Source: a virus (Duplodnaviria; Heunggongvirae; Uroviricota; Caudoviricetes). Taken from it: a stretch of 9,713 bases of DNA. The stretch lies in IMG/VR virus record IMGVR_UViG_3300029250_000062, positions 1-9,713 of that record; one strand, written 5' to 3'. Below, piece after piece: positions 1-9,713 of this stretch (its first letter is position 1; every line of letters begins with the position of its first letter). The position numbers were made by a program, and so were the translations under genes. The notes under the pieces were generated by a model. That model made no database searches, was not told where the DNA came from, and was given only the letters and a program-made list of their open reading frames with translations.

Positions 1-1764
1 GAATATTACTTTGTCATTGCGCTGGCCGGGCAGTCCAACTCGATGTCTTTTGGCGAGGGGCTGCCGCTGCCGGAGACATATGACCGTCCGGACCCGCGTA
101 TTAAACAGCTGGCGCGTCGCAGTACGGTGACGCCGGGTGGTGCCGCCTGTAAATATAACGACATCATTCCGGCAGACCACTGTCTGCATGATGTGCAGGA
201 TATGAGTAACCTGAATCATCCTCATGCAGACCTGAGTAAGGGACAGTACGGTTGTGTGGGGCATGCTCTGCATGTTGCCAAAAAGCTGCTGCCGTTTATG
301 CCTGCGAATGCGGGTATCCTTCTTGTTCCATGTGGCCGTGGCGATCCGGGATTTACTGCGGGGGCCGAGGGGGCGTTTAACGAAGCGTCGGGAGCGACCG
401 CAGGCTCGTCCCTGTGGGGGGCGGATAAACCGCTGTATCATGACCTGGTCAGCAGAACCCGTGCGGCCCTGAAGAAAAATCCGAAGAACGTGCTGTTATC
501 AGTGATCTGGATGCAGGGAGAAAAAGATGTCAGTTCGGGGAGACATGCAGAACACAATGCGCTTTTCCTTGCCATGGTAAATCAGTTCCGTACGGAACTG
601 GCAGATGTGGCAGAGCAGTGTACTGGCGGGACAACGGCCAGCGTCCCGTGGATTTGCGGTGATACCACGTACTACTGGAAGGAAAGGTATGCAGCGCCGT
701 ATGAGGCGGTTTACGGTGGGTATAAAGGCAAAGCTGCGCAGAATATTCACTTTGTGCCGTTGATGACGGATGAGCATGGTGCGAATGTGCCGACAAACGA
801 GCCGTCAGAAGATCCGGACATTATCCCGGCGGGATACTATGGCGCTGCGTCACGCACTGCCAGTAACTGGACGTCAGCCGATCGTAAAACGCACTTCAGT
901 TCATGGGCGCGAAGAGGCCTTGTTTCAGACCGCCTGGCAGGTGCCATTTTGCAGTACGCCGGGCGGACATTATCGTTCCTTACCGGGCAGAGCGCACCGC
1001 AGTCGGGTGGTACAACTCCCGGTGATGATGTCAGTCCGGGGACACCGGATGTTGAGAAACCGCAGGATGGCGGTGTTGCTGGTACTGGTCATGATGAGGC
1101 CGTGAGCAGTACCAGGACGGTGGCTGAATATGATGCGAACAGTGGAAATGGTGTATGGACAGAGCAGCAGTGGGGGGCTGCCGGTGGCAAAGGCACTGTG
1201 ACTGATGACGGTGGACGGAAAGCGCTACGACTGGAAAAACAGCCCGGTAAACTGACGTCCTGGAAAATGTTCCGTACTGTTGCAGTGGAGGAGGCAAAAA
1301 ATCTTCTCAGCAAGGGGGGTGAAATTGCCGTACGGTTCAAAATTCCGGATGGAAGCGAACTGGTGAACGGACAGTTTGTCTTTGGTCTCTACTGGCCGGT
1401 GTCGCAGTGGGCGTCAGGCGCGGCAGCAAACAGTATGCTGGCATCATTCTTCCTTCAGACGGATGCATCAAATCTGAATCTTATGCACCACAAGGGCACG
1501 TCGAATGCACAACTGGGTACATTTGGTGCGTTTGACCATAACTGGCATACGGTTGTTTTCCGCTTTGCGGGAAATAACAGCGAAAGAGTCGTTCCGGTGA
1601 TTGATGGTACAGAGCAGACGGCGTTTGACCTTGTGATGTGGACAAATGATGGCTTTACAGCAGATACGCTGACGCTGACAGATATCACGGGGGCAAAAGC
1701 GACGTATCCTGTACTGCTTGATACGGTCACAGTCAAAGTTAACGAAAGCCGGGCATCATCATAA
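1..1764 (+). CDS. NanS-p-like sialate O-acetylesterase (SGNH/SASA-type hydrolase with C-terminal extension); 5'-truncated by window edge
   Basis: Frame is open from base 1; the listed ATG at 43 is internal. First in-window residues EYYFVIALAGQSNSMSFGEG contain the GQSN catalytic-serine block of SGNH/SASA esterases. Stop TAA at 1762-1764. Position immediately upstream of the lysis cassette matches where nanS-p sits in Stx-type lambdoid prophages (recollection, not searched). Confidence 0.7.
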   Translation, partial: EYYFVIALAGQSNSMSFGEGLPLPETYDRPDPRIKQLARRSTVTPGGAACKYNDIIPADHCLHDVQDMSNLNHPHADLSKGQYGCVGHALHVAKKLLPFMPANAGILLVPCGRGDPGFTAGAEGAFNEASGATAGSSLWGADKPLYHDLVSRTRAALKKNPKNVLLSVIWMQGEKDVSSGRHAEHNALFLAMVNQFRTELADVAEQCTGGTTASVPWICGDTTYYWKERYAAPYEAVYGGYKGKAAQNIHFVPLMTDEHGANVPTNEPSEDPDIIPAGYYGAASRTASNWTSADRKTHFSSWARRGLVSDRLAGAILQYAGRTLSFLTGQSAPQSGGTTPGDDVSPGTPDVEKPQDGGVAGTGHDEAVSSTRTVAEYDANSGNGVWTEQQWGAAGGKGTVTDDGGRKALRLEKQPGKLTSWKMFRTVAVEEAKNLLSKGGEIAVRFKIPDGSELVNGQFVFGLYWPVSQWASGAAANSMLASFFLQTDASNLNLMHHKGTSNAQLGTFGAFDHNWHTVVFRFAGNNSERVVPVIDGTEQTAFDLVMWTNDGFTADTLTLTDITGAKATYPVLLDTVTVKVNESRASS

Positions 1765-4631: not shown

Positions 4632-4645
4632 TATCTGTGCCGGGA

Positions 4646-4978
4646 ATGAAAATGAAAAGAAATCTTCCGTTAATTATTTTGTTGTCTTCTCTGGTTATGG
4701 GCTGTACGCAACATAAAACAGATATGCCCCGACAGTTGGTTAAGGCATTACCACAATATCCGGCCTATGCAGCGGCAAATTATATAAAGGGACGGGTTGA
4801 TGTGAAGTTTGATATTGGTGCTGATGGTACTGTCACCCGAATTGAGTTTATCCGTTCAGAGCCGCACCATTTGTTTGATGAGCAGGTTGTAAAGGCGATG
4901 GCAAAATGGCGATTTGAGAAGGACAGGCCGTGTAAAGGCGTGAAGAAAACGTTTATCTTTAGTCCTTCTGCACCCTGA
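4646..4978 (+). CDS. Lipoprotein consisting essentially of a TonB C-terminal-like domain (moron candidate)
   Basis: Signal peptide with lipobox (MKMKRNLPLIILLSSLVMG-C; Thr at +2 suggests outer-membrane sorting). Mature part LPQYPAYAAANYIKGRVDVKFDIGADGTVTRIEFIRSEPHHLFDEQVVKAMAKWRFE parallels the E. coli TonB C-terminal domain (PQYP...G.V.V.F.....DG.V.......P...F...V..AM..WR(Y/F), from memory). Alternative start ATG 4652 has better SD spacing. Confidence 0.7.
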   Translation: MKMKRNLPLIILLSSLVMGCTQHKTDMPRQLVKALPQYPAYAAANYIKGRVDVKFDIGADGTVTRIEFIRSEPHHLFDEQVVKAMAKWRFEKDRPCKGVKKTFIFSPSAP

Positions 4979-5011: not shown

Positions 5012-5113
5012 TTATTCTGTACATCCCGGCAGGGTAAGTCTTGTTCCGTCGGATATGAAGATGAAATATTGTTGGAGGACAGTGGGTACCTGCTCCTGTA
5101 ACCGAACGTTCAT
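5012..5113 (-). CDS. Possible 33-aa ORF translationally coupled to the upstream RHH gene (speculative)
   Basis: On the minus strand the ATG overlaps the RHH stop (ATGA). Product MNVRLQEQVPTVLQQYFIFISDGTRLTLPGCTE. Below the length cutoff of the supplied ORF track; no family recognised. Confidence 0.2.
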   Translation of the reverse strand: MNVRLQEQVPTVLQQYFIFISDGTRLTLPGCTE

Positions 5114-5310
5114 TTCTCGTTATTTTTCATGCTGGCCGGGCGCAGATGCGTTGCATCTGTTGCCAGCCTTCTCCTGCAGGCTTCAATAACCCACGCTGAA
5201 AAGTTACCGGACCCTTTATGCTCAAGGGCGATGCTGATCTGTTCAATCATGTGATTGGGGAAACGGATATTGCGGGTTGTGGTTCTGCGGGTCCGGTTTT
5301 TCGATGACAT
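5110..5310 (-). CDS. Arc/Mnt-like ribbon-helix-helix DNA-binding protein (possibly YlcI/YnfO DUF3950-like)
   Basis: 66 aa from ATG at 5310-5308 with SD AAGGAAA 8 nt upstream on the minus strand. RNIRFPNHMIEQISIALEHKGSGNFSAWVIEACRRRL aligns in pattern with Arc repressor FNLRWPREVLDLVRKVAEENGRSVNSEIYQRVMESF (beta-strand then two helices). Opposite strand to the surrounding late genes. Confidence 0.65.
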   Translation of the reverse strand: MSSKNRTRRTTTRNIRFPNHMIEQISIALEHKGSGNFSAWVIEACRRRLATDATHLRPASMKNNEK

Positions 5311-5351
5311 ATTTATTTCCTTTACTGATTGCCATATGACGGGGATTTTAC

Positions 5352-5717
5352 ATGGCTCAGCTTCGTACACTCCAGAGCAGAATCAAAACACTGAATACCC
5401 GACGGGTGAATATTCTGAAGGGGGAGCAGCGTCGTGTCAGTGGCAGTGCACGTGTTTCCCTCAAGCGTCATATCTGGCTGAGGGACGCCGGGCAGTGCTG
5501 TATCTGTGGTCGTGTGGTTGACCTCTGTGACAGTGAACTTGATCACCGAATTGCACTTCAGTTCGGTGGTGGTAATGAGGAGACGAATCTCTGGACGCTC
5601 TGTACCGAATGCCATCGACAAAAGTCTGCTCGTGAAGCGGCGGGTGGTATGCCGGACCCGACGCTGCCGGAGGTGTCCGGAGGTAGTGGCAGAGCGGACG
5701 ACATCATCGGACTGTAA
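5352..5717 (+). CDS. HNH endonuclease (packaging-associated, HK97 gp74-like)
   Basis: CxxC...DH...N...CxxCH arrangement: CCICGRVVD, SELDHRIALQFGGGNEETNLWTLCTECHRQK. Sits immediately upstream of the cos-like region and terS, the usual place in HK97-like packaging modules. Confidence 0.85.
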   Translation: MAQLRTLQSRIKTLNTRRVNILKGEQRRVSGSARVSLKRHIWLRDAGQCCICGRVVDLCDSELDHRIALQFGGGNEETNLWTLCTECHRQKSAREAAGGMPDPTLPEVSGGSGRADDIIGL

Positions 5718-5810
5718 CCCGACCCGGGGGGGGGGATCATCCGGCGTAAAAAACGATCGCTTTGGACACCGCGCCCCCTCTCACGCAGAGAAAAAATTCC
5801 CGTTTCAGGG

Positions 5811-5936
5811 CAGTTAACATGTTAACTGGCTGCCCGGGCATTTTTGCGGTTTTTATCTTTATTATTCAGTTTGTTGTGCGGAAAAAATGTTAACTGGCTT
5901 TTTCAGCAAATGTTAACCAGGCAGCAGTTAACATTT
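5811..5936. repeat. Array of five ATGTTAAC/GTTAACAT motifs (palindrome, direct repeat, inverted pair); putative cosB / terminase small-subunit recognition sites
   Basis: 18-bp perfect palindrome CAGTTAACATGTTAACTG (5811-5828); 12-bp direct repeat ATGTTAACTGGC (5819-5830 and 5887-5898); inverted pair AAATGTTAAC (5908-5917) / GTTAACATTT (5927-5936) with 9-bp spacer. All in non-coding DNA between HNH and terS, ending about 70 bp before the terS start. Confidence 0.45.
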
Positions 5937-6008
5937 GCGGCATGAGACGCCGGGAAAAATGGGCTGAACCATACCCGGCTGAGTGCGTTCTGGACCCGGG
6001 AGGAGGCT

Positions 6009-6572
6009 GTGCTGACAACGCAAAAACGAAAATTTGCGCTGGCGCTCATGTCCGGGAAAAACAAAACAGCGTCAGCCATTGCCGCCGGTTATTCGGCGAA
6101 GACCGCCAGGGTTAAAGGCTCGCAGCTGGCAAAAGATCCGGAGGTGCTTGCGTTTATAGCCCGTAAACAATGCGAGACGGTGGAGGTGGATGAGGTTCCT
6201 GTTTACCGGCAGAAAAAATCAGAGCAGGAGGATAAACCCCGTCGCCGTGAGGCGGCTGCAATACCACAGCCGGACGAAAACAATCCGGAGATGCCACCGT
6301 CCGCGGTGATGTCTCCTGGTATTGAATATATGGAGGATGGTCTTCCCGATCCGGTGAAAGCCATGGGGCGGATCCTGGTGGAAAACCTCTGCATTGATCC
6401 GAAACTGGCACTGGATGCGGCCTGGCGTCTGGCGCAGTTCACGCACCATAAAAAAGGGGATACCGGGAAAAAATCGGCAAAAGGTGATGCCGCGAAAAAA
6501 GCGGCTAACCGTTTTGCGGTGCCACCGCCACCCAGACTGGTGGTGAATAACGATAATGAGGGCAACGGATGA
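6009..6572 (+). CDS. terS: Terminase small subunit (HTH-containing)
   Basis: GTG start at 6009 with SD GGGAGG/AGGAGG (5998-6006). N-terminal LTTQKRKFALALMSGKNKTASAIAAGYSAKTARVKGSQL matches the usual terS signature (K.FA..Y....N.T.AAI.AGYS.KTA...GS.L). Stop TGA overlaps the terL ATG (ATGA at 6569-6572). Confidence 0.85.
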   Translation: MLTTQKRKFALALMSGKNKTASAIAAGYSAKTARVKGSQLAKDPEVLAFIARKQCETVEVDEVPVYRQKKSEQEDKPRRREAAAIPQPDENNPEMPPSAVMSPGIEYMEDGLPDPVKAMGRILVENLCIDPKLALDAAWRLAQFTHHKKGDTGKKSAKGDAAKKAANRFAVPPPPRLVVNNDNEGNG

Positions 6573-8230
6573 TACCTGTATGGAGCACAGCCTGCCCGGA
6601 CTGGGCAGAGCGCCTGAAAAAGGGGCTGTCGATTATTCCGGATCCGATTTATCCGGACGAGGCCGCACATGCCCTGGCGATTTTTAAACAACTGCGGATT
6701 GTGGATGCACCTGGTAGCCCGACGTTCGGGGAGTCCTGTGCACGGTGGGTGTTTGACCTGGTGGCGGCCCTGTTTGGCTCCTACGATGCGCAGACCGGTG
6801 TACGCCATATCAAGGAAGTTTTTATCCTTATCCCCAAGAAAAACTCGAAGTCCACGCTGGCCGCGGGGATCATGATGACGGCGCTGTTACTGAACTGGCG
6901 GCAGGCGGCGGGTTACACGATTCTGGCCCCGACTGTGGAGGTGGCGGCCAACGCCTTCAACCCTGCCCGGGATATGGTACGACGTGACGATGATCTGGAT
7001 GACCTCTGCCAGGTACAGACCCATATCCGGACCATCACCCACAGGGTGACAGACACCACCCTGAAGGTGGTGGCAGCCGATCCGAATACGGTGTCCGGTA
7101 TCAAGTCCGTGGGTACGCTGATTGATGAGTTGTGGCTGTTTGGCAAGCAGTGCAAGGCGGAGGACATGTTACGTGAAGCCATAGGCGGCCTTGCCTCCCG
7201 CCCGGAAGGGTTTGTGGTGTATACGACCACCCAGTCGAATGAACCGCCCGCCGGGGTGTTCAGACAGAAACTGCAGTACGCCCGGGATGTGCGCGACGGC
7301 AAAATTCATGATCCGCACTTTCTGCCGGTGATATTTGAACACCCTCCTGAAATGGTGGAAAGCGGGACTCACCTGCTGATGGAAAACCTCGCCATGGTCA
7401 ATCCGAATCTCGGCTATTCAGTGGATGAGGCCTTTCTGTACCGGGAGTACCGTAAAGCCCGGGAAGCCGGTGAAGAGACATTCCGGGGGTTCATGTCAAA
7501 ACACGCCAATGTGGAAATTGGTCTTGCCCTGCGCTCTGACCGCTGGGCGGGGGCTGATTTCTGGGAAGAGCAGGGCCGTTGTATCAGCCTGGACGATATC
7601 CTGCGTCGTGCTGATGTGGTGACGGTGGGGATTGACGGCGGAGGGCTGGATGATCTGCTGGGGATGTATGTGATTGGGCGTGACCGGGAGACCCGCGAAT
7701 GGCTGGGCTGGGGCCATGCCTGGGCGCATGAAACCGCGGTGGTCCGACGGAAGAGCGAGGCGTCCCGGTTTCAGGATCTTGTTGCCTGTGGAGATATGAC
7801 CATTGTCCGGCGTGTCGGGGATGACACGGCGGAAGTGGCGGAATATGTGCGTCGCATTCATGAGGCTGAGTTACTGGACCATATCGGTATTGACCCGTCA
7901 GGGGTGGGGCAGATTCTGGATTCACTGGCGGAAGCCGGGATCCCCGACGGAATTGTGGTGGGGATAAGCCAGGGCTGGAAACTGGGCGGGGCCATTAAAA
8001 CCACCGAGCGCAAACTGGCTGAAGGGGTGCTGGTGCATGGTGACCAGCCCCTGATGGCCTGGTGTGTCGGCAATGCCCGGGTGGAGCCTAAAGGTAACGC
8101 CATTCTTATCACCAAACAGGCCAGTGGACGGGGAAAAATTGACCCGCTGATGGCGCTGTTCAATGCGGTCTCCCTGATGTCCCTTAACCCGGAACCGAAA
8201 AAGAAAGAATATGCGGTTTTTTTCATATAA
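6569..8230 (+). CDS. terL: Terminase large subunit (ATPase + RNase H-like nuclease domains)
   Basis: 553 aa. Walker A-like ILIPKKNSKSTLAAG, Walker B-like GTLIDELW, C-terminal nuclease-type acidic cluster VTVGIDGGGLDDLLGMYVIG. Translationally coupled to terS. Confidence 0.9.
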   Translation: MIPVWSTACPDWAERLKKGLSIIPDPIYPDEAAHALAIFKQLRIVDAPGSPTFGESCARWVFDLVAALFGSYDAQTGVRHIKEVFILIPKKNSKSTLAAGIMMTALLLNWRQAAGYTILAPTVEVAANAFNPARDMVRRDDDLDDLCQVQTHIRTITHRVTDTTLKVVAADPNTVSGIKSVGTLIDELWLFGKQCKAEDMLREAIGGLASRPEGFVVYTTTQSNEPPAGVFRQKLQYARDVRDGKIHDPHFLPVIFEHPPEMVESGTHLLMENLAMVNPNLGYSVDEAFLYREYRKAREAGEETFRGFMSKHANVEIGLALRSDRWAGADFWEEQGRCISLDDILRRADVVTVGIDGGGLDDLLGMYVIGRDRETREWLGWGHAWAHETAVVRRKSEASRFQDLVACGDMTIVRRVGDDTAEVAEYVRRIHEAELLDHIGIDPSGVGQILDSLAEAGIPDGIVVGISQGWKLGGAIKTTERKLAEGVLVHGDQPLMAWCVGNARVEPKGNAILITKQASGRGKIDPLMALFNAVSLMSLNPEPKKKEYAVFFI

Positions 8231-8277: not shown

Positions 8278-8293
8278 TTTTCAGGAGGCTGAT

Positions 8294-9713
8294 GTGACTC
8301 TTAAACGGGCCTGTTCCCTGCTGACGGTGAAATCCTTCAGTGAGGATGAACGGGTGATCACCGGGATTGCGTCAACGCCTTCTCCGGATCGGGATGGTGA
8401 CATCCTGGAGCCGGAGGGCGCGGAGTTTGGCAGTGCGATCCCGTTTCTCTGGCAGCATGACCATTCCCGCCCGGTGGGGCAGTGTACGGTGCGCCGGGTC
8501 AGCGAAGGGCTGGAAATCACGGCAACACTGGTGAAGCCCGTACCGGATATGCCGTCGCAACTGGCTGCCCGGCTGGATGAGGTCTGGGCGGCCATTAAGA
8601 CCGGGCTGGTCAGGGGGCTGTCCGTGGGCTTCCGTCCCCATGAATACACCTTTCTGGACGGAGGCGGACTGCATTTTCTGCGCTGGGAACTGATGGAGGT
8701 GTCTGCCGTCACCGTGCCCGCGAATGCGGAATGCACCATCCGGACCATTAAATCTTACGACCGCCCGTTTTCTGCCGCGTCCGGCAACCGGAAACCGGTG
8801 GTGAAAATCGCATCTTCTGCCGGCGCTGCGGCACAGTCAACAACCGTTTTTCATAAGGAAAAGACCATAATGAATATTGGCGAACAGATTAAAAGTTTTG
8901 AAAACAAGCGTGCAGCGCTGGCAGCCTCCCTTGAGGAGGTCATGACCAAAGCCGCAGAGGAAGGGCGCACGCTGGATGTGGAGGAGGAAGAGCATTACGA
9001 CAACACCGCAGCGGAAATCCGTCAGGTGGATGCGCACCTGAAGCGCCTGCGTGAACTGGAAGCCGGTAAGGCCGCCACGGCGCAGCCGGTGAAACAGGCC
9101 GGTAACGGGAATGTGGCCGCGGTGGCTTCTGCGCCGGTGATCCGTGTGGAGCAGAAACTGGATAAGGGGATTGGCTTCGCCCGCTTTGCCAAATCGCTGG
9201 CTGCGGCTAAAGGCGTCCGATCTGAAGCCCTGGAAGTGGCCCGTCGTCAGTATCCGGATGACAGTCGTCTGCATCATGTCCTGAAATCGGCAGTGGGCGC
9301 GGGGACCACCACGGATCCGCAGTGGGCAGGCAGCCTGTCTGAATATCAGGAATACGCACAGGACTTTATTGATTACCTGCGTCCGCAGACCATTATCGGG
9401 CGATTTGGTCAGGGCGGGATCCCTGCACTTCGTCAGGTGCCGTTCAATATCCGTGTGCACGCCCAGGTGTCCGGCGGTGCTGCCGGCTGGGTGGGTGAGG
9501 GTAAGGCAAAACCCCTGACGAAGTTTGATTTTGAATCCATCACCTTCAGTCATGCGAAGGTGTCGGCCATTGCGGTACTGACGGAAGAATTGATCCGTTT
9601 TTCCAGTCCGGCTGCTGATGCACTGGTCCGTAATGCGCTGGCGGAAGCGGTGGTGGCGCGTCTGGATACAGACTTTGTGGACCCGAAAAAAGCCGCAGTG
9701 GCAGATGTCTCCC
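8294..9713 (+). CDS. HK97-family prohead protease fused in-frame to major capsid protein (delta domain + HK97 fold); 3'-truncated by window edge
   Basis: GTG 8294 preceded by SD AGGAGG (8283-8288). I translated this frame codon by codon and found no stop from 8294 to 9712; that is why it is absent from the ORF track. Protease motifs GIASTPSPDRDGDILEP, PFLWQHD, VSAVTVPANAEC; then Ala/Ser/Gly-rich linker; then from Met (ATG 8870) a coiled-coil delta-like region and capsid-like body (DKGIGFARFAKSL... GWVGEGKAKP... AVLTEELIRFSSPAA). Confidence 0.75.
   Translation, partial: MTLKRACSLLTVKSFSEDERVITGIASTPSPDRDGDILEPEGAEFGSAIPFLWQHDHSRPVGQCTVRRVSEGLEITATLVKPVPDMPSQLAARLDEVWAAIKTGLVRGLSVGFRPHEYTFLDGGGLHFLRWELMEVSAVTVPANAECTIRTIKSYDRPFSAASGNRKPVVKIASSAGAAAQSTTVFHKEKTIMNIGEQIKSFENKRAALAASLEEVMTKAAEEGRTLDVEEEEHYDNTAAEIRQVDAHLKRLRELEAGKAATAQPVKQAGNGNVAAVASAPVIRVEQKLDKGIGFARFAKSLAAAKGVRSEALEVARRQYPDDSRLHHVLKSAVGAGTTTDPQWAGSLSEYQEYAQDFIDYLRPQTIIGRFGQGGIPALRQVPFNIRVHAQVSGGAAGWVGEGKAKPLTKFDFESITFSHAKVSAIAVLTEELIRFSSPAADALVRNALAEAVVARLDTDFVDPKKAAVADVS
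8870..9713 (+). CDS. Possible independently translated major capsid protein from internal in-frame start (nested in the protease-capsid ORF)
   Basis: ATG 8870 preceded by AAGGAAAAG (8855-8863). Product begins MNIGEQIKSFENKRAALAASLEEVMTKAAEEG, a typical N-terminal scaffold-like delta domain. Analogous in logic to lambda C/Nu3 nested translation. Confidence 0.4.
   Translation, partial: MNIGEQIKSFENKRAALAASLEEVMTKAAEEGRTLDVEEEEHYDNTAAEIRQVDAHLKRLRELEAGKAATAQPVKQAGNGNVAAVASAPVIRVEQKLDKGIGFARFAKSLAAAKGVRSEALEVARRQYPDDSRLHHVLKSAVGAGTTTDPQWAGSLSEYQEYAQDFIDYLRPQTIIGRFGQGGIPALRQVPFNIRVHAQVSGGAAGWVGEGKAKPLTKFDFESITFSHAKVSAIAVLTEELIRFSSPAADALVRNALAEAVVARLDTDFVDPKKAAVADVS

What the first reader, a model, noticed from the sequence alone, without database searches (positions are those of the whole stretch)
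5718..6008. Probable cos region: G10 homopolymer plus an organised array of GTTAAC-core repeats upstream of terS
The 290-bp non-coding stretch between HNH and terS contains (i) CCC-G10 (5723-5735) directly after the HNH stop, (ii) an 18-bp perfect palindrome CAGTTAACATGTTAACTG, (iii) a 12-bp direct repeat ATGTTAACTGGC 68 bp later, (iv) an inverted pair AAATGTTAAC/GTTAACATTT, and phased A/T tracts (5841-5887). An HNH gene beside cos and terS is the HK97-type packaging layout, where HNH assists terminase cleavage. The repeats are good candidates for TerS-binding (cosB-like) sites and the G-rich segment for the cleavage site. The G10 tract is also slippage-prone.
Basis: partly seen in the sequence, partly recalled or inferred. 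Interest (0 to 1): 0.55.

Follow-up and report, generated by a model that had tools for sequence, protein, structure and literature searches.

The report
Phage cos site with repeat array
This stretch is the DNA-packaging (cos) site of a very common E. coli prophage of the Shiga-toxin-phage type; the cut falls in a C-rich 10-bp segment rather than in the G10 run, and the GTTAAC repeats are probably docking sites for the small terminase, so it is an ordinary kind of element with some undescribed detail.

Summary
The region is a cos site, but the cut is not in the G10 run. The PhageTerm-ordered genome of the close relative Lys8385Vzw ends at ...GGACACCGCCCCCCCT and restarts at CTCACGCAGAG. This places the 10-nt 3' cohesive end at window 5770-5779 (CGCGCCCCCT). 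The ends of Bcep176, SfI and HK97 align to the same decamer.

The G-run (5726-5735) ends 45 nt left of the cut. A G-rich block ends 41-46 nt before the cut in nearly all ~120 relatives and in HK97 and SfI. It is therefore a conserved left-arm element. Its length varies from 5 to 13 among E. coli relatives.

The GTTAAC core derives from codons 1-3 of terS (ATG TTA ACA), which in typical family members start at +40. In this lineage about 190 bp were added, and the motif AAATGTTAACTG now occurs five times. Two other lineages with a displaced terS start also multiplied TGTTAA. Relatives whose TerS has a different N-terminal domain lack the motif. This supports, but does not prove, binding by the TerS helix-turn-helix domain in a cosB-like manner.

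Verdict: partly supported; new member of a known kind; modest interest.

The parts
5352..5717 (+). HNH endonuclease gene, the packaging-associated nuclease upstream of cos
   Evidence: Pfam PF01844, E=4.8e-7, 30.3 bits against a cut-off of 21.4. phrog_589 HNH endonuclease, E=1.6e-44. Annotated as HNH/DNase in relatives.
5726..5735 (+). G10 run, positions -54 to -45 from the top-strand cut; the family-conserved G-rich block of the left arm of cos, not the cut site
   Evidence: A G-rich block ends 43-45 nt before the cut in 34 of 40 genome loci and 44-45 nt in 77 of 83 IMG/VR loci. It ends 42 nt before the end in HK97 and 41 nt in SfI. Its length is 5-13 in 108 E. coli-type sequences, mostly 7-8. 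Position 5735 is T in the majority of relatives.
5764..5769 (+). GGACAC, the conserved left flank of the cut (-16 to -11)
   Evidence: Information content is 1.4-2.0 bits at -15, -14 and -12 to -10 across 48 unique family sequences; -13 (A or C) scores 0.6. GGAC also precedes the decamer in SfI and GAC in HK97.
5770..5779 (+). Cohesive-end decamer CGCGCCCCCT (cosN); inferred 10-nt 3' overhang, with nicks after 5779 on the top strand and opposite 5769/5770 on the bottom strand
   Evidence: The Lys8385Vzw record ends ...CGCCCCCCCT and starts CTCACGCAG. PhageTerm reported cos with 3' ends and CGCCCCCCCT (PMC7946995). Bcep176 carries the aligned decamer at both record ends. The run-off-sequenced SfI decamer aligns here. 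Positions -7 to -1 vary across the family.
5780..5802 (+). Conserved right flank CTCACGCAGAGAAAAAATTCCCG (+1 to +23), including an A6 tract at +12 to +17; first bases of the virion left end
   Evidence: Family consensus CYCACGCRCAGAAAAAATYCCC, with information content mostly 1.1-2.0 bits. Conserved from Enterobacterales to Burkholderiales and with both TerS types.
5811..5828 (.). 18-bp palindrome holding motif copies 1 (-) and 2 (+). Its right half, ATGTTAACTG at +40 to +49, is the relic of the ancestral terS start codon region
   Evidence: In typical relatives the terS ATG is at +40 and reads ATG TTA ACA G. No variation in 5811-5831 among 76 unique relatives.
5832..5883 (.). A+T-rich spacer with T5 tracts, between the palindrome and the distal motif cluster
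   Evidence: 60% A+T against 46% for the window. No IHF consensus within one mismatch. Most of the sequence variation among relatives sits here.
5885..5898 (+). Motif copy 3, AAATGTTAACTGGC
   Evidence: The ATGTTAAC core is invariant in 76 unique relatives; only 5895 and 5897 vary.
5908..5921 (+). Motif copy 4, AAATGTTAACCAGG
   Evidence: The core is invariant in relatives.
5923..5936 (-). Motif copy 5; reads AAATGTTAACTGCT on the minus strand
   Evidence: The core is invariant in relatives.
6009..6572 (+). terS (GTG start, preceded by GGAGGAGG at 5999-6006). N-terminal helix-turn-helix of the Terminase_2 (SPP1/SF6 G1P) type
   Evidence: PF03592, E=1.3e-8, residues 2-57. phrog_641, E=1.8e-68. 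The N-terminus aligns from residue 1 with FSL SP-016 and Burkholderia TerS. Weak PDB matches to the SF6 TerS DNA-binding domain.
6569..8230 (+). terL, the large terminase (ATPase plus RNase H-like nuclease)
   Evidence: PF03354 and PF20441. phrog_9. About 21-22% identical to SfI/SfIV TerL by tblastn.

Best explanation
Window 5718-6008 is the cos site of a lambdoid E. coli prophage of the BP-4795 / 2851 / Lys8385Vzw type. This phage packages unit-length genomes with an HNH-assisted, HK97-type terminase.

Inferred by homology:
- Terminase (TerL, probably helped by the HNH protein) makes staggered nicks on either side of the decamer CGCGCCCCCT (5770-5779), leaving 10-nt 3' cohesive ends.
- The virion left end starts at 5780, and the right end carries the G-run.

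Shown comparatively:
- The site has a deeply conserved core: a G-rich block ending about 45 nt left of the cut, then GGACAC, a variable decamer, and CTCACGCRCAGAAAAAATYCCC on the right.
- This core stays the same in relatives whose TerS has a different N-terminal domain.

Inference from that: the core, including the G-run, is read by TerL/HNH or serves packaging termination in a cosQ-like way. It is not read by the TerS DNA-binding domain.

To the right of the core lie five copies of AAATGTTAACTG, at +32 to +49 and +106 to +157. The most likely reading is that they bind the N-terminal helix-turn-helix domains of the oligomeric TerS. They would then anchor terminase next to the cut and set the packaging direction towards terS, as lambda cosB or the SPP1 pac boxes do. 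This is inference supported by comparison; no binding was tested.

The array arose when about 190 bp were added between the ancestral terS start (ATG TTA ACA at +40) and the present GTG start at +230. The old start region was kept as DNA and the motif was multiplied.
For: Cut position:
- Lys8385Vzw is 95-97% identical here. Its PhageTerm-ordered record ends ...GGACACCGCCCCCCCT and begins CTCACGCAGAGAAAAAATTCCCG. The paper reports cos, 3' ends and CGCCCCCCCT.
- The Bcep176 record repeats the aligned decamer at both ends.
- The experimentally sequenced SfI decamer TGCCCGCCCC follows GGAC and lies 41 nt after a G-rich block.
- The HK97 right end has G9, then 42 nt ending GAC CGCCGCCAAA.

Family anatomy:
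- The G-run ends 43-45 nt before the cut in 34 of 40 genome loci and 44-45 nt in 77 of 83 IMG/VR loci. The terS ATG is at +39 or +40 in 32 of 40 and 73 of 83 loci.
- The flanks are conserved and decamer positions -7 to -1 vary.

The motif as a DNA element:
- TGTTAA/TTAACA occurs 83 times in 1785 nt at +26 to +60, against 0.00014 per nt elsewhere in the same loci.
- The TTA at codon 2 or 3 is usually the only TTA Leu codon in terS, even in genes of 60-64% G+C.
- In three lineages terS starts far from the cut: the window at +230, a Paraburkholderia locus at +145 and a Cellvibrionaceae locus at +137. All three have TGTTAA or TTAAC near the ancestral start position and extra copies in the added spacer. 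In the window and the Paraburkholderia locus the new terS start reads CTG instead of TTA.
- Relatives whose TerS lacks the helix-turn-helix domain keep the G-run and the cut core but have TTCAAAAGGAATTCAA instead of TGTTAA. Their TerS has a Gly/Arg-rich N-terminal arm and the same C-terminal half.
- All five ATGTTAAC cores are invariant in 76 unique E. coli relatives, while variation falls between them.

Proteins: HNH, a TerS with an N-terminal helix-turn-helix, and an HK97-class TerL.
Against: - No virion ends were mapped for this prophage itself. The cut is assigned by homology. The key relative's ends come from PhageTerm read statistics, and that paper prints garbled coordinates.
- TerS binding to the repeats is untested.
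- Part of the link between TerS type and motif is trivial, because TTAACA encodes Leu-Thr at the TerS N-terminus.
- A+T-rich codons near a start codon are also favoured for translation initiation.
- The E. coli relatives are only about 2-5% diverged, so invariant 8-mers are modest evidence.
- The centre-to-centre spacings of the copies (8, 68, 23 and 15 bp) show no clear helical phasing.
- No IHF site was found.
- The role of the G-run is unknown, and its length tolerance (5-13) argues against a strict spacing requirement on its left side.
- In HK97 the mapped TerS site is at +15 to +29 (PMC11331095). The conserved A-tract block at +8 to +23 here could therefore be the real TerS site instead of the repeats.
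Confidence: 0.72

Rival explanations
1. One reading: the G10 / CCC-G10 segment is the cleavage site (cosN), and the cohesive end is made there.
For: The segment is G/C-rich like many cohesive ends, lies directly after the HNH gene, and is conserved across the family.
Against: - Four independent records place the ends 41-45 nt to the right of the G block: Lys8385Vzw, Bcep176, SfI and HK97.
- The G-run varies from 5 to 13 in close relatives, which fits poorly with a fixed-length cohesive end.
Confidence: 0.03
2. The GTTAAC array is a neutral or translation-related leftover. Under this reading, duplications of the terS 5' end (ribosome-binding region plus ATG TTA AC) have simply not yet decayed. 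Alternatively they act on terS mRNA translation rather than as a packaging signal. TerS would then bind the conserved A-tract block at +8 to +23, as in HK97.
For: - The motif is derived from terS codons 1-3.
- HK97 TerS binds at +15 to +29 next to an A-tract, and an A6 tract at +12 to +17 is conserved family-wide here.
- The E. coli group is young, at 2-5% divergence.
Against: - Copies occur in both orientations, so they cannot all act as start regions.
- The old Shine-Dalgarno sequence is destroyed (GGAGG has become CAGGG), yet the core is perfectly kept.
- Independent lineages with displaced terS starts also multiplied the motif.
- The +1 to +23 block is unchanged in relatives with a different TerS N-domain, whereas the +25 to +45 DNA changes with it.
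Confidence: 0.15
3. The repeats bind some other factor, such as a phage late regulator, a host protein or the HNH protein, or they form a promoter or operator for terS.
For: - One weak promoter-like match on the minus strand is built from TTAACA and TAACAT, with 9 of 12 positions matching.
- Palindromic sites are typical of dimeric regulators.
Against: - Promoter-like matches are few: 2 found against 0.7 expected, sd 0.8, and the one in the repeats is on the wrong strand for terS.
- There is no terminator in the intergenic region and no Rfam match.
- The motif tracks the TerS helix-turn-helix type across the family, and upstream gene content varies. In Serratia locus L125 the 330 bp shown upstream of terS contain no HNH-like coding sequence, judged by eye.
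Confidence: 0.08
4. The module packages by a headful (pac) mechanism, as the SPP1/SF6-type (Terminase_2) TerS might suggest. The repeats would then be pac boxes without fixed ends.
For: The TerS N-terminal domain belongs to Pfam Terminase_2, whose studied members SPP1 and SF6 are pac phages (the SPP1/SF6 packaging mode is from my own knowledge).
Against: - PhageTerm classed the close relative as cos with 3' ends.
- The Bcep176 record has a 10-nt terminal repeat.
- TerL is of the HK97/SfI class with an adjacent HNH gene.
Confidence: 0.02

Closest known systems
cos of Stx1 phage Lys8385Vzw (MT225100; PMC7946995) and its relatives BP-4795, 2851, 1717, YYZ-2008 and phi330
   Same: The region is the same at 95-99% identity. 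It has the same HNH-cos-terS-terL order, the same repeat array, and the decamer CGCCCCCCCT where the window has CGCGCCCCCT.
   Different: - One substitution in the decamer. The window's form is the commoner one among relatives.
- G-run of 10 against 7.
- The paper reports only the decamer, and says nothing about the G block or the repeats.
HK97 cos with gp74 HNH, gp1 TerS and gp2 TerL (PMC11331095, PMC10359639)
   Same: - An HNH gene upstream of cos and a 10-nt 3' overhang.
- A G9 run followed by ATCA, ending 42 nt before the end, then GAC plus a decamer.
- An A/T tract shortly after the cut, and TerL of the same Pfam class.
- HNH stimulates cos cleavage.
   Different: - The TerS and HNH proteins show no detectable BLASTP similarity.
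- HK97 TerS has no helix-turn-helix domain. It reads a single 15-bp site at +15 to +29 through its central tunnel and terminal arms.
- Here TerS is of the helix-turn-helix (Terminase_2) type and there is a five-copy repeat array.
- The right flank sequences are unrelated (GTTTGAATTTAACGC against CTCACGCAGAG).
Bacteriophage lambda cos (cosQ-cosN-cosB, with R3-I1-R2-R1); features taken from my own knowledge
   Same: - The layout is the same: an element upstream of the cut on the last-packaged side, then the nick site, then several TerS recognition repeats separated by an A+T-rich segment, lying between the cut and the terS gene.
- Packaging would start towards terS.
   Different: - Lambda has 12-nt 5' overhangs and needs no HNH protein.
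- Its gpNu1 is a winged-helix protein of a different family.
- It has an IHF site in cosB, and none was found here.
- There is no sequence similarity.
SPP1 / SF6 G1P small terminase and its pac boxes; pac-site features taken from my own knowledge
   Same: The TerS N-terminal helix-turn-helix domain belongs to the same Pfam family (PF03592; weak PDB matches 4zc3, 2cmp and 3zqp). There are multiple repeated recognition boxes around intrinsically A+T-rich DNA.
   Different: Those phages package by the headful mechanism without fixed ends. Here the ends are fixed cohesive ends made by an HK97-class TerL with an HNH partner.
SfI / SfV cos (PMC3636060)
   Same: HNH stop, then the G-rich block GGGGAGGGGCGGG, then 41 nt ending in GGAC plus a C-rich decamer (TGCCCGCCCC) shown by run-off sequencing. 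This is the same left-arm architecture.
   Different: - The right arm and TerS differ. SfI TerS starts MAGTAGRSGRRP and has no helix-turn-helix domain.
- SfI has no TGTTAAC repeats; a single TTTAAC occurs at +31 to +36.

Membership tests
HK97-type HNH-assisted cos packaging module | An HNH endonuclease gene directly upstream of cos and the terminase genes | tested here: met
   PF01844, 30.3 bits against a cut-off of 21.4. phrog_589, E=1.6e-44. The stop codon lies 8 nt before the G-run.
HK97-type HNH-assisted cos packaging module | TerL of the TerL_ATPase / RNase H-like nuclease class shared with HK97 and SfI | tested here: met
   PF03354 and PF20441 above their cut-offs. tblastn finds SfI and SfIV TerL at E about 1e-12. 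That HK97 gp2 belongs to these Pfam families is from my own knowledge.
HK97-type HNH-assisted cos packaging module | Fixed 10-nt 3' cohesive ends | not testable with these tools
   No virion DNA from this prophage is available. By homology the feature is met: Lys8385Vzw (PhageTerm), Bcep176 (10-nt terminal repeat in the record) and SfI (run-off sequencing) all cut around the aligned decamer.
HK97-type HNH-assisted cos packaging module | Left-arm architecture: a G-rich block about 41-45 nt before the cut, and GAC/GGAC next to the decamer | tested here: met
   Window: the G10 run ends at -45 and GGACAC lies at -16 to -11. HK97: 42 nt. SfI: 41 nt. Family: 43-45 nt.
HK97-type HNH-assisted cos packaging module | TerS homologous to HK97 gp1, with tunnel-threading recognition of one 15-bp site | tested here: not met
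   BLASTP against HK97 gp1 gives E = 0.91. The only Pfam hit is Terminase_2.
Lambda-type cosB | Several repeats of a TerS recognition sequence between the cut and terS | tested here: inconclusive
   Five copies of AAATGTTAACTG lie at +32 to +157, and comparative support exists. Protein binding cannot be tested here.
Lambda-type cosB | An IHF site between the repeats | tested here: not met
   WATCAANNNNTTR has no match with up to one mismatch inside 5718-6008.
Lambda-type cosB | A gpNu1-family TerS and 12-nt 5' overhangs | tested here: not met
   TerS matches Terminase_2 only. The relative's ends are 10-nt 3' overhangs.
Terminase_2 (SPP1/SF6 G1P-like) small terminase | An N-terminal helix-turn-helix DNA-binding domain matching PF03592 | tested here: met
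   36.0 bits against a cut-off of 26.1; residues 2-57 match profile positions 1-56.
Terminase_2 (SPP1/SF6 G1P-like) small terminase | Headful (pac) packaging | tested here: not met
   Relatives have defined cohesive ends.

The most novel reading that the evidence does not exclude
The G-rich block would be an essential but so far undescribed third element of all HK97-type cos sites, shared by HK97, SfI/SfV, the Burkholderia Bcep176 group and this E. coli family. It would be read by TerL or the HNH partner, for example to terminate packaging in a cosQ-like way. Because it is a slippage-prone homopolymer here (5-13 G), its length could tune or switch the packaging efficiency of individual prophages in strains that carry up to seven copies of this module. 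In parallel, the TGTTAAC array would be an expandable cosB whose copy number changes by duplication of the terS start region.
Probability: 0.2. Interest if true: 0.55.

Novelty: new member of a known kind. Interest (0 to 1): 0.33.

Why it matters
This packaging module is present in about 23% of complete E. coli genomes (1255 of 5426), with up to seven copies per genome, and it includes many Shiga-toxin-converting phages. Knowing where cos is cut and which neighbouring elements are needed has practical uses:
- predicting which resident or defective prophages can be packaged or cross-packaged;
- setting correct genome ends in annotation;
- designing cos-based transduction or detection tools.

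The comparative result also gives the HK97 model system two testable leads. One is a conserved G block about 45 nt left of the cut that is independent of TerS type. The other is a right-arm motif that changes with the TerS N-domain.

Tried and rejected
- **IHF site in the A+T-rich spacer:** none within one mismatch.
- **Promoter or terminator in the intergenic region:** only one weak minus-strand promoter-like match built from the repeat itself, and no terminator.
- **Known RNA family:** only a chance mir-214 match, at 15 bits against a gathering score of 66.7.
- **Independently mobile insertion (MITE-like) for 5829-6000:** it occurs in 3004 places in 1276 E. coli genomes. That is essentially the same count as the terL-capsid junction (2979 places in 1255 genomes), and none of the 30 sampled hits overlaps an annotated feature.
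- **Small ORF 5819-5893 (MLTGCPGIFAVFIFIIQFVVRKKC) starting at the relic ATG:** its Shine-Dalgarno sequence is mutated, relatives carry indels at 5835, 5836 and 5880, and substitutions fall at all codon positions. It is probably not coding.
- **Minus-strand ORFs 8281-8748 and 8837-9553 (no Pfam hit):** they are shadows of the capsid/protease gene, which runs off the window end.
- **Literature search for the decamer and flank sequences:** this returned only the Lys8385Vzw paper. A search for a Bcep176 cos description found nothing useful.
- **Record boundaries not counted as physical ends:** the vB_E354 record starts at +20, and the phiBt-TXDOH and phi330 records are annotated as circularly permuted with the cohesive ends joined.
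- **PDB sequence search with TerS:** only weak hits, E = 0.19-0.78, to the SF6 TerS DNA-binding domain.
- **Not attempted:** structure prediction and the large protein-database searches, because they would not decide any open point.
Full report
**1. Observation**

- The HNH ORF ends with TAA at 5715-5717.
- CCC (5723-5725) is followed by G10 (5726-5735).
- CAGTTAACATGTTAACTG is a perfect 18-bp palindrome at 5811-5828.
- ATGTTAACTGGC recurs 68 bp later, at 5819-5830 and 5887-5898.
- GCAAATGTTAAC and GTTAACATTTGC form a perfect inverted pair at 5906-5917 and 5927-5938.

GTTAAC occurs 7 times in the window against 1.3 expected, and none of 200 shuffles reached 7. Five of the seven lie within 120 bp. 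All five exact ATGTTAAC copies are there, oriented - + + + -. Their consensus is AAATGTTAACTG.

The A/T tracts exist: 5836-5910 is 67% A+T against 46% overall. Their spacing, read from the sequence, is irregular, so 'phased' is too strong.

The flanking genes are an HNH endonuclease, a TerS of the Terminase_2 family and an HK97-class TerL.

**2. Origin of the window**

The window comes from an E. coli lambdoid prophage.
- The HNH-to-terS region is 93-99% identical to BP-4795, phage 2851, 1717, YYZ-2008 and many Stx1a/Stx2-converting phages.
- The terL-capsid junction of this module is found in 1255 of 5426 complete E. coli genomes, with up to seven places per genome.
- Upstream lie the usual late genes: an esterase, lysozyme R, Rz and a TonB_C protein.

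**3. Where the DNA is cut**

A paper on the Stx1 phage Lys8385Vzw reports, from PhageTerm, cos packaging with 3' cohesive ends and the sequence CGCCCCCCCT (PMC7946995). Its record, MT225100, is ordered accordingly. It ends ...GATCGCTCCGGACACCGCCCCCCCT and begins CTCACGCAGAGAAAAAATTCCCGTTTCAGGGCAGTTAACATGTTAACTGG. This aligns base for base with the window.

The decamer is therefore window 5770-5779 (CGCGCCCCCT), and the virion left end starts at 5780. The G-run ends 45 nt to the left.

Three further records agree.
- The Burkholderia phage Bcep176 record carries the aligned decamer CGCACGTTCC at both of its ends, as expected if the 10-nt cohesive end was written at each end.
- The SfI cohesive end TGCCCGCCCC, found by run-off sequencing (PMC3636060), follows GGAC and lies 41 nt after a G-rich block.
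- The HK97 right end reads G9-ATCAAATC...ATGAC-CGCCGCCAAA, with 42 nt from the G-run to the end.

The claim that the G-rich segment is the cleavage site is therefore not supported.

**4. The G-run is nevertheless a real, conserved element**

I collected three sets of relatives:
- 108 close relatives from IMG/VR;
- 53 distant relatives from one genome per species, found with a TerS alignment;
- 94 further family members found with the right-flank core.

A G-rich block ends 43-45 nt before the cut in 34 of 40 analysable genome loci. It ends 44-45 nt before the cut in 77 of 83 IMG/VR loci. These loci range from Enterobacterales to Burkholderiales and Xanthomonadales. HK97 and SfI have it too.

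Among E. coli-type sequences its length is 5-13, mostly 7 or 8. Ten, as in the window, is in the upper tail. In most relatives position 5735 is T. The right edge of the block is in register with the cut and the length varies leftward.

**5. Anatomy of the core**

I anchored 48 unique family sequences at the cut.
- GA(C/A)ACC at -15 to -10 is strongly conserved (1.4-2.0 bits except at the A/C position).
- +1 to +22, CYCACGCRCAGAAAAAATYCCC, is also conserved (mostly 1.1-2.0 bits).
- Decamer positions -7 to -1 drift (0.2-0.8 bits).

Conserved flanks around a variable overhang fit a nuclease that is positioned by the flanks.

**6. The GTTAAC repeats**

In typical family members the terS ATG lies at +39 or +40 (32 of 40 and 73 of 83 loci). 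The gene begins ATG TTA ACA G in Enterobacterales, or ATG GCT TTA ACA G preceded by TTGTTA in Burkholderiales. Salmonella phage FSL SP-016 shows this layout. Its HNH-terS spacer is only 106 bp and aligns with window 5719-5826. Its TerS aligns with the window's from residue 1.

So the right half of the window's palindrome (ATGTTAACTG, +40 to +49) is the ancestral terS start. About 190 bp (5827-6008) are extra. The old Shine-Dalgarno sequence GGAGG now reads CAGGG. The present start is GTG at 6009, behind GGAGGAGG.

Four observations indicate that TGTTAA(C) is selected as DNA and not only as codons.
1. The hexamer or its complement occurs 83 times in 1785 nt at +26 to +60, against 0.00014 per nt elsewhere in the same loci.
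2. The TTA at codon 2 or 3 is usually the only TTA among 7-15 Leu codons in terS, even in genes of 60-64% G+C.
3. Three lineages have a displaced terS start: the window, a Paraburkholderia locus at +145 and a Cellvibrionaceae locus at +137. All three have the motif near the ancestral start position and extra copies in the added spacer. In the window and the Paraburkholderia locus the new start reads CTG instead of TTA.
4. Some relatives have a TerS with the same C-terminal half but a Gly/Arg-rich N-terminal arm instead of the helix-turn-helix domain. They keep the G block, the cut core and the ATG at about +40, but carry TTCAAAAGGAATTCAA in place of TGTTAA.

Within the E. coli group all five 8-bp cores are invariant in 76 unique sequences, and substitutions fall between them.

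**7. Mechanism proposed**

Shown: the position of the decamer relative to mapped ends in relatives, the conservation pattern, and the link between the motif and the TerS N-domain.

Inferred:
- TerL, together with the HNH protein, nicks on either side of 5770-5779 to give 10-nt 3' ends. In HK97 the HNH protein gp74 stimulates cos cleavage (PMC11331095).
- The G block and the GGACAC / CTCACGC flanks are read by the conserved TerL/HNH machinery, or act in termination like lambda cosQ.
- The helix-turn-helix domains of the TerS oligomer bind the palindrome at +32 to +49 and the distal cluster at +106 to +157, across a 52-bp A+T-rich spacer. This holds terminase at the left end and directs packaging towards terS.

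The main uncertainty is whether TerS binds the repeats or the A-tract block at +8 to +23. HK97 TerS binds at +15 to +29. However, that block does not change when the TerS N-domain changes, which favours the repeats.

**8. Comparison with known systems**

- It works like an HK97-type cos for cutting: an HNH partner, a 10-nt 3' overhang and a shared left arm.
- It works like lambda cosB or the SPP1 pac boxes for recognition: repeated helix-turn-helix sites between the cut and terS.
- It is not a full member of the HK97 set, because neither TerS nor HNH shows detectable similarity to gp1 or gp74.
- It is not lambda-like in its ends, its TerS family or an IHF site.
- It is not a pac system, despite the Terminase_2 TerS.

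**9. Novelty and verdict**

The cos decamer of this phage group is already published (PMC7946995), so the core of the finding is known biology in a new copy.

In the literature I could search, I found no description of:
- the family-wide G block shared with HK97 and SfI;
- the origin of the repeats from the terS start;
- their repeated expansion in independent lineages.

These are modest, testable additions rather than a new kind of system. I rate it a new member of a known kind with interest 0.33.

**10. Dead ends**

- There is no IHF site, terminator, convincing promoter or Rfam family in the region.
- The extra 190 bp are not independently mobile.
- The 24-codon ORF at 5819-5893 is unlikely to be coding.
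- The minus-strand ORFs after terL are shadows of the capsid gene, which runs off the window.

Noticed in passing
L152, L156-L166, L237 (relatives); no counterpart in the window: A second TerS type of 100-113 aa starts MAGxxGRSGGARPGAGR and has no helix-turn-helix domain. It shares the C-terminal half with the window's TerS. It sits behind the same G block, cut core and ATG at about +40, but the +25 to +45 DNA reads TTCAAAAGGAATTCAA instead of TGTTAA. This is a domain swap in TerS accompanied by a swap of the adjacent DNA.
   Followed up: partly
L268:620-690 (HK97 right end); L125, L127-L129, L145, L164, upstream of the G block: An A+T-rich, sometimes repeated motif of the form AATGAGA-N-ATTCGCAT(TTGC) or AATGATA-N-TTCTCATTTGCAT lies directly left of the G block in HK97 and in several distant relatives. 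It looks somewhat like a Fur box (from memory; not tested). It is absent from the window, where the HNH stop abuts the G-run.
   Followed up: no
window 5770-5779 and relatives L007-L114: The cohesive decamer is polymorphic among E. coli prophages. Counted to +6 (CTCACG or CTCATG) in 111 sequences: CGCGCCCCCT 75, CGCCCCCCGT 18, CGCCCCCCCT 13, others 5. O157 and other STEC genomes carry up to 7 copies of this module, so co-resident prophages may have non-identical cohesive ends.
   Followed up: partly
window 5819-5893 (+): A 24-codon hydrophobic ORF (MLTGCPGIFAVFIFIIQFVVRKKC) starts at the relic terS ATG. Its Shine-Dalgarno sequence is mutated and relatives have indels, so it is probably not expressed.
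   Followed up: partly
window 8281-8748 and 8837-9553 (-): Two long minus-strand ORFs have no Pfam hit. Relatives annotate a plus-strand capsid/protease gene here that runs off the window end, so these ORFs are spurious.
   Followed up: yes
window 4637-4978 (+) and 43-1764 (+): A TonB C-terminal-domain protein gene lies between Rz and HNH. A SASA-esterase/DUF6645 gene lies upstream of the lysis genes. Both are accessory genes in the late region and neither was examined further. From memory, the esterase resembles the NanS-p esterases of Stx phages; this was not tested.
   Followed up: no
window 5110-5370 (-): An 86-codon minus-strand ORF overlaps the HNH start by 19 nt. Its position matches a short minus-strand gene annotated in relatives as a DUF3950 domain protein. 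It is transcribed against the late operon.
   Followed up: no
L003 / L169 (Burkholderia phage vB_E354), L004 (phiBt-TXDOH), L115 (phi330): Several 'complete genome' records of family members start at arbitrary points, such as +20 or inside terS, although the conserved cos core is present. Their ends could be re-set from the decamer.
   Followed up: partly
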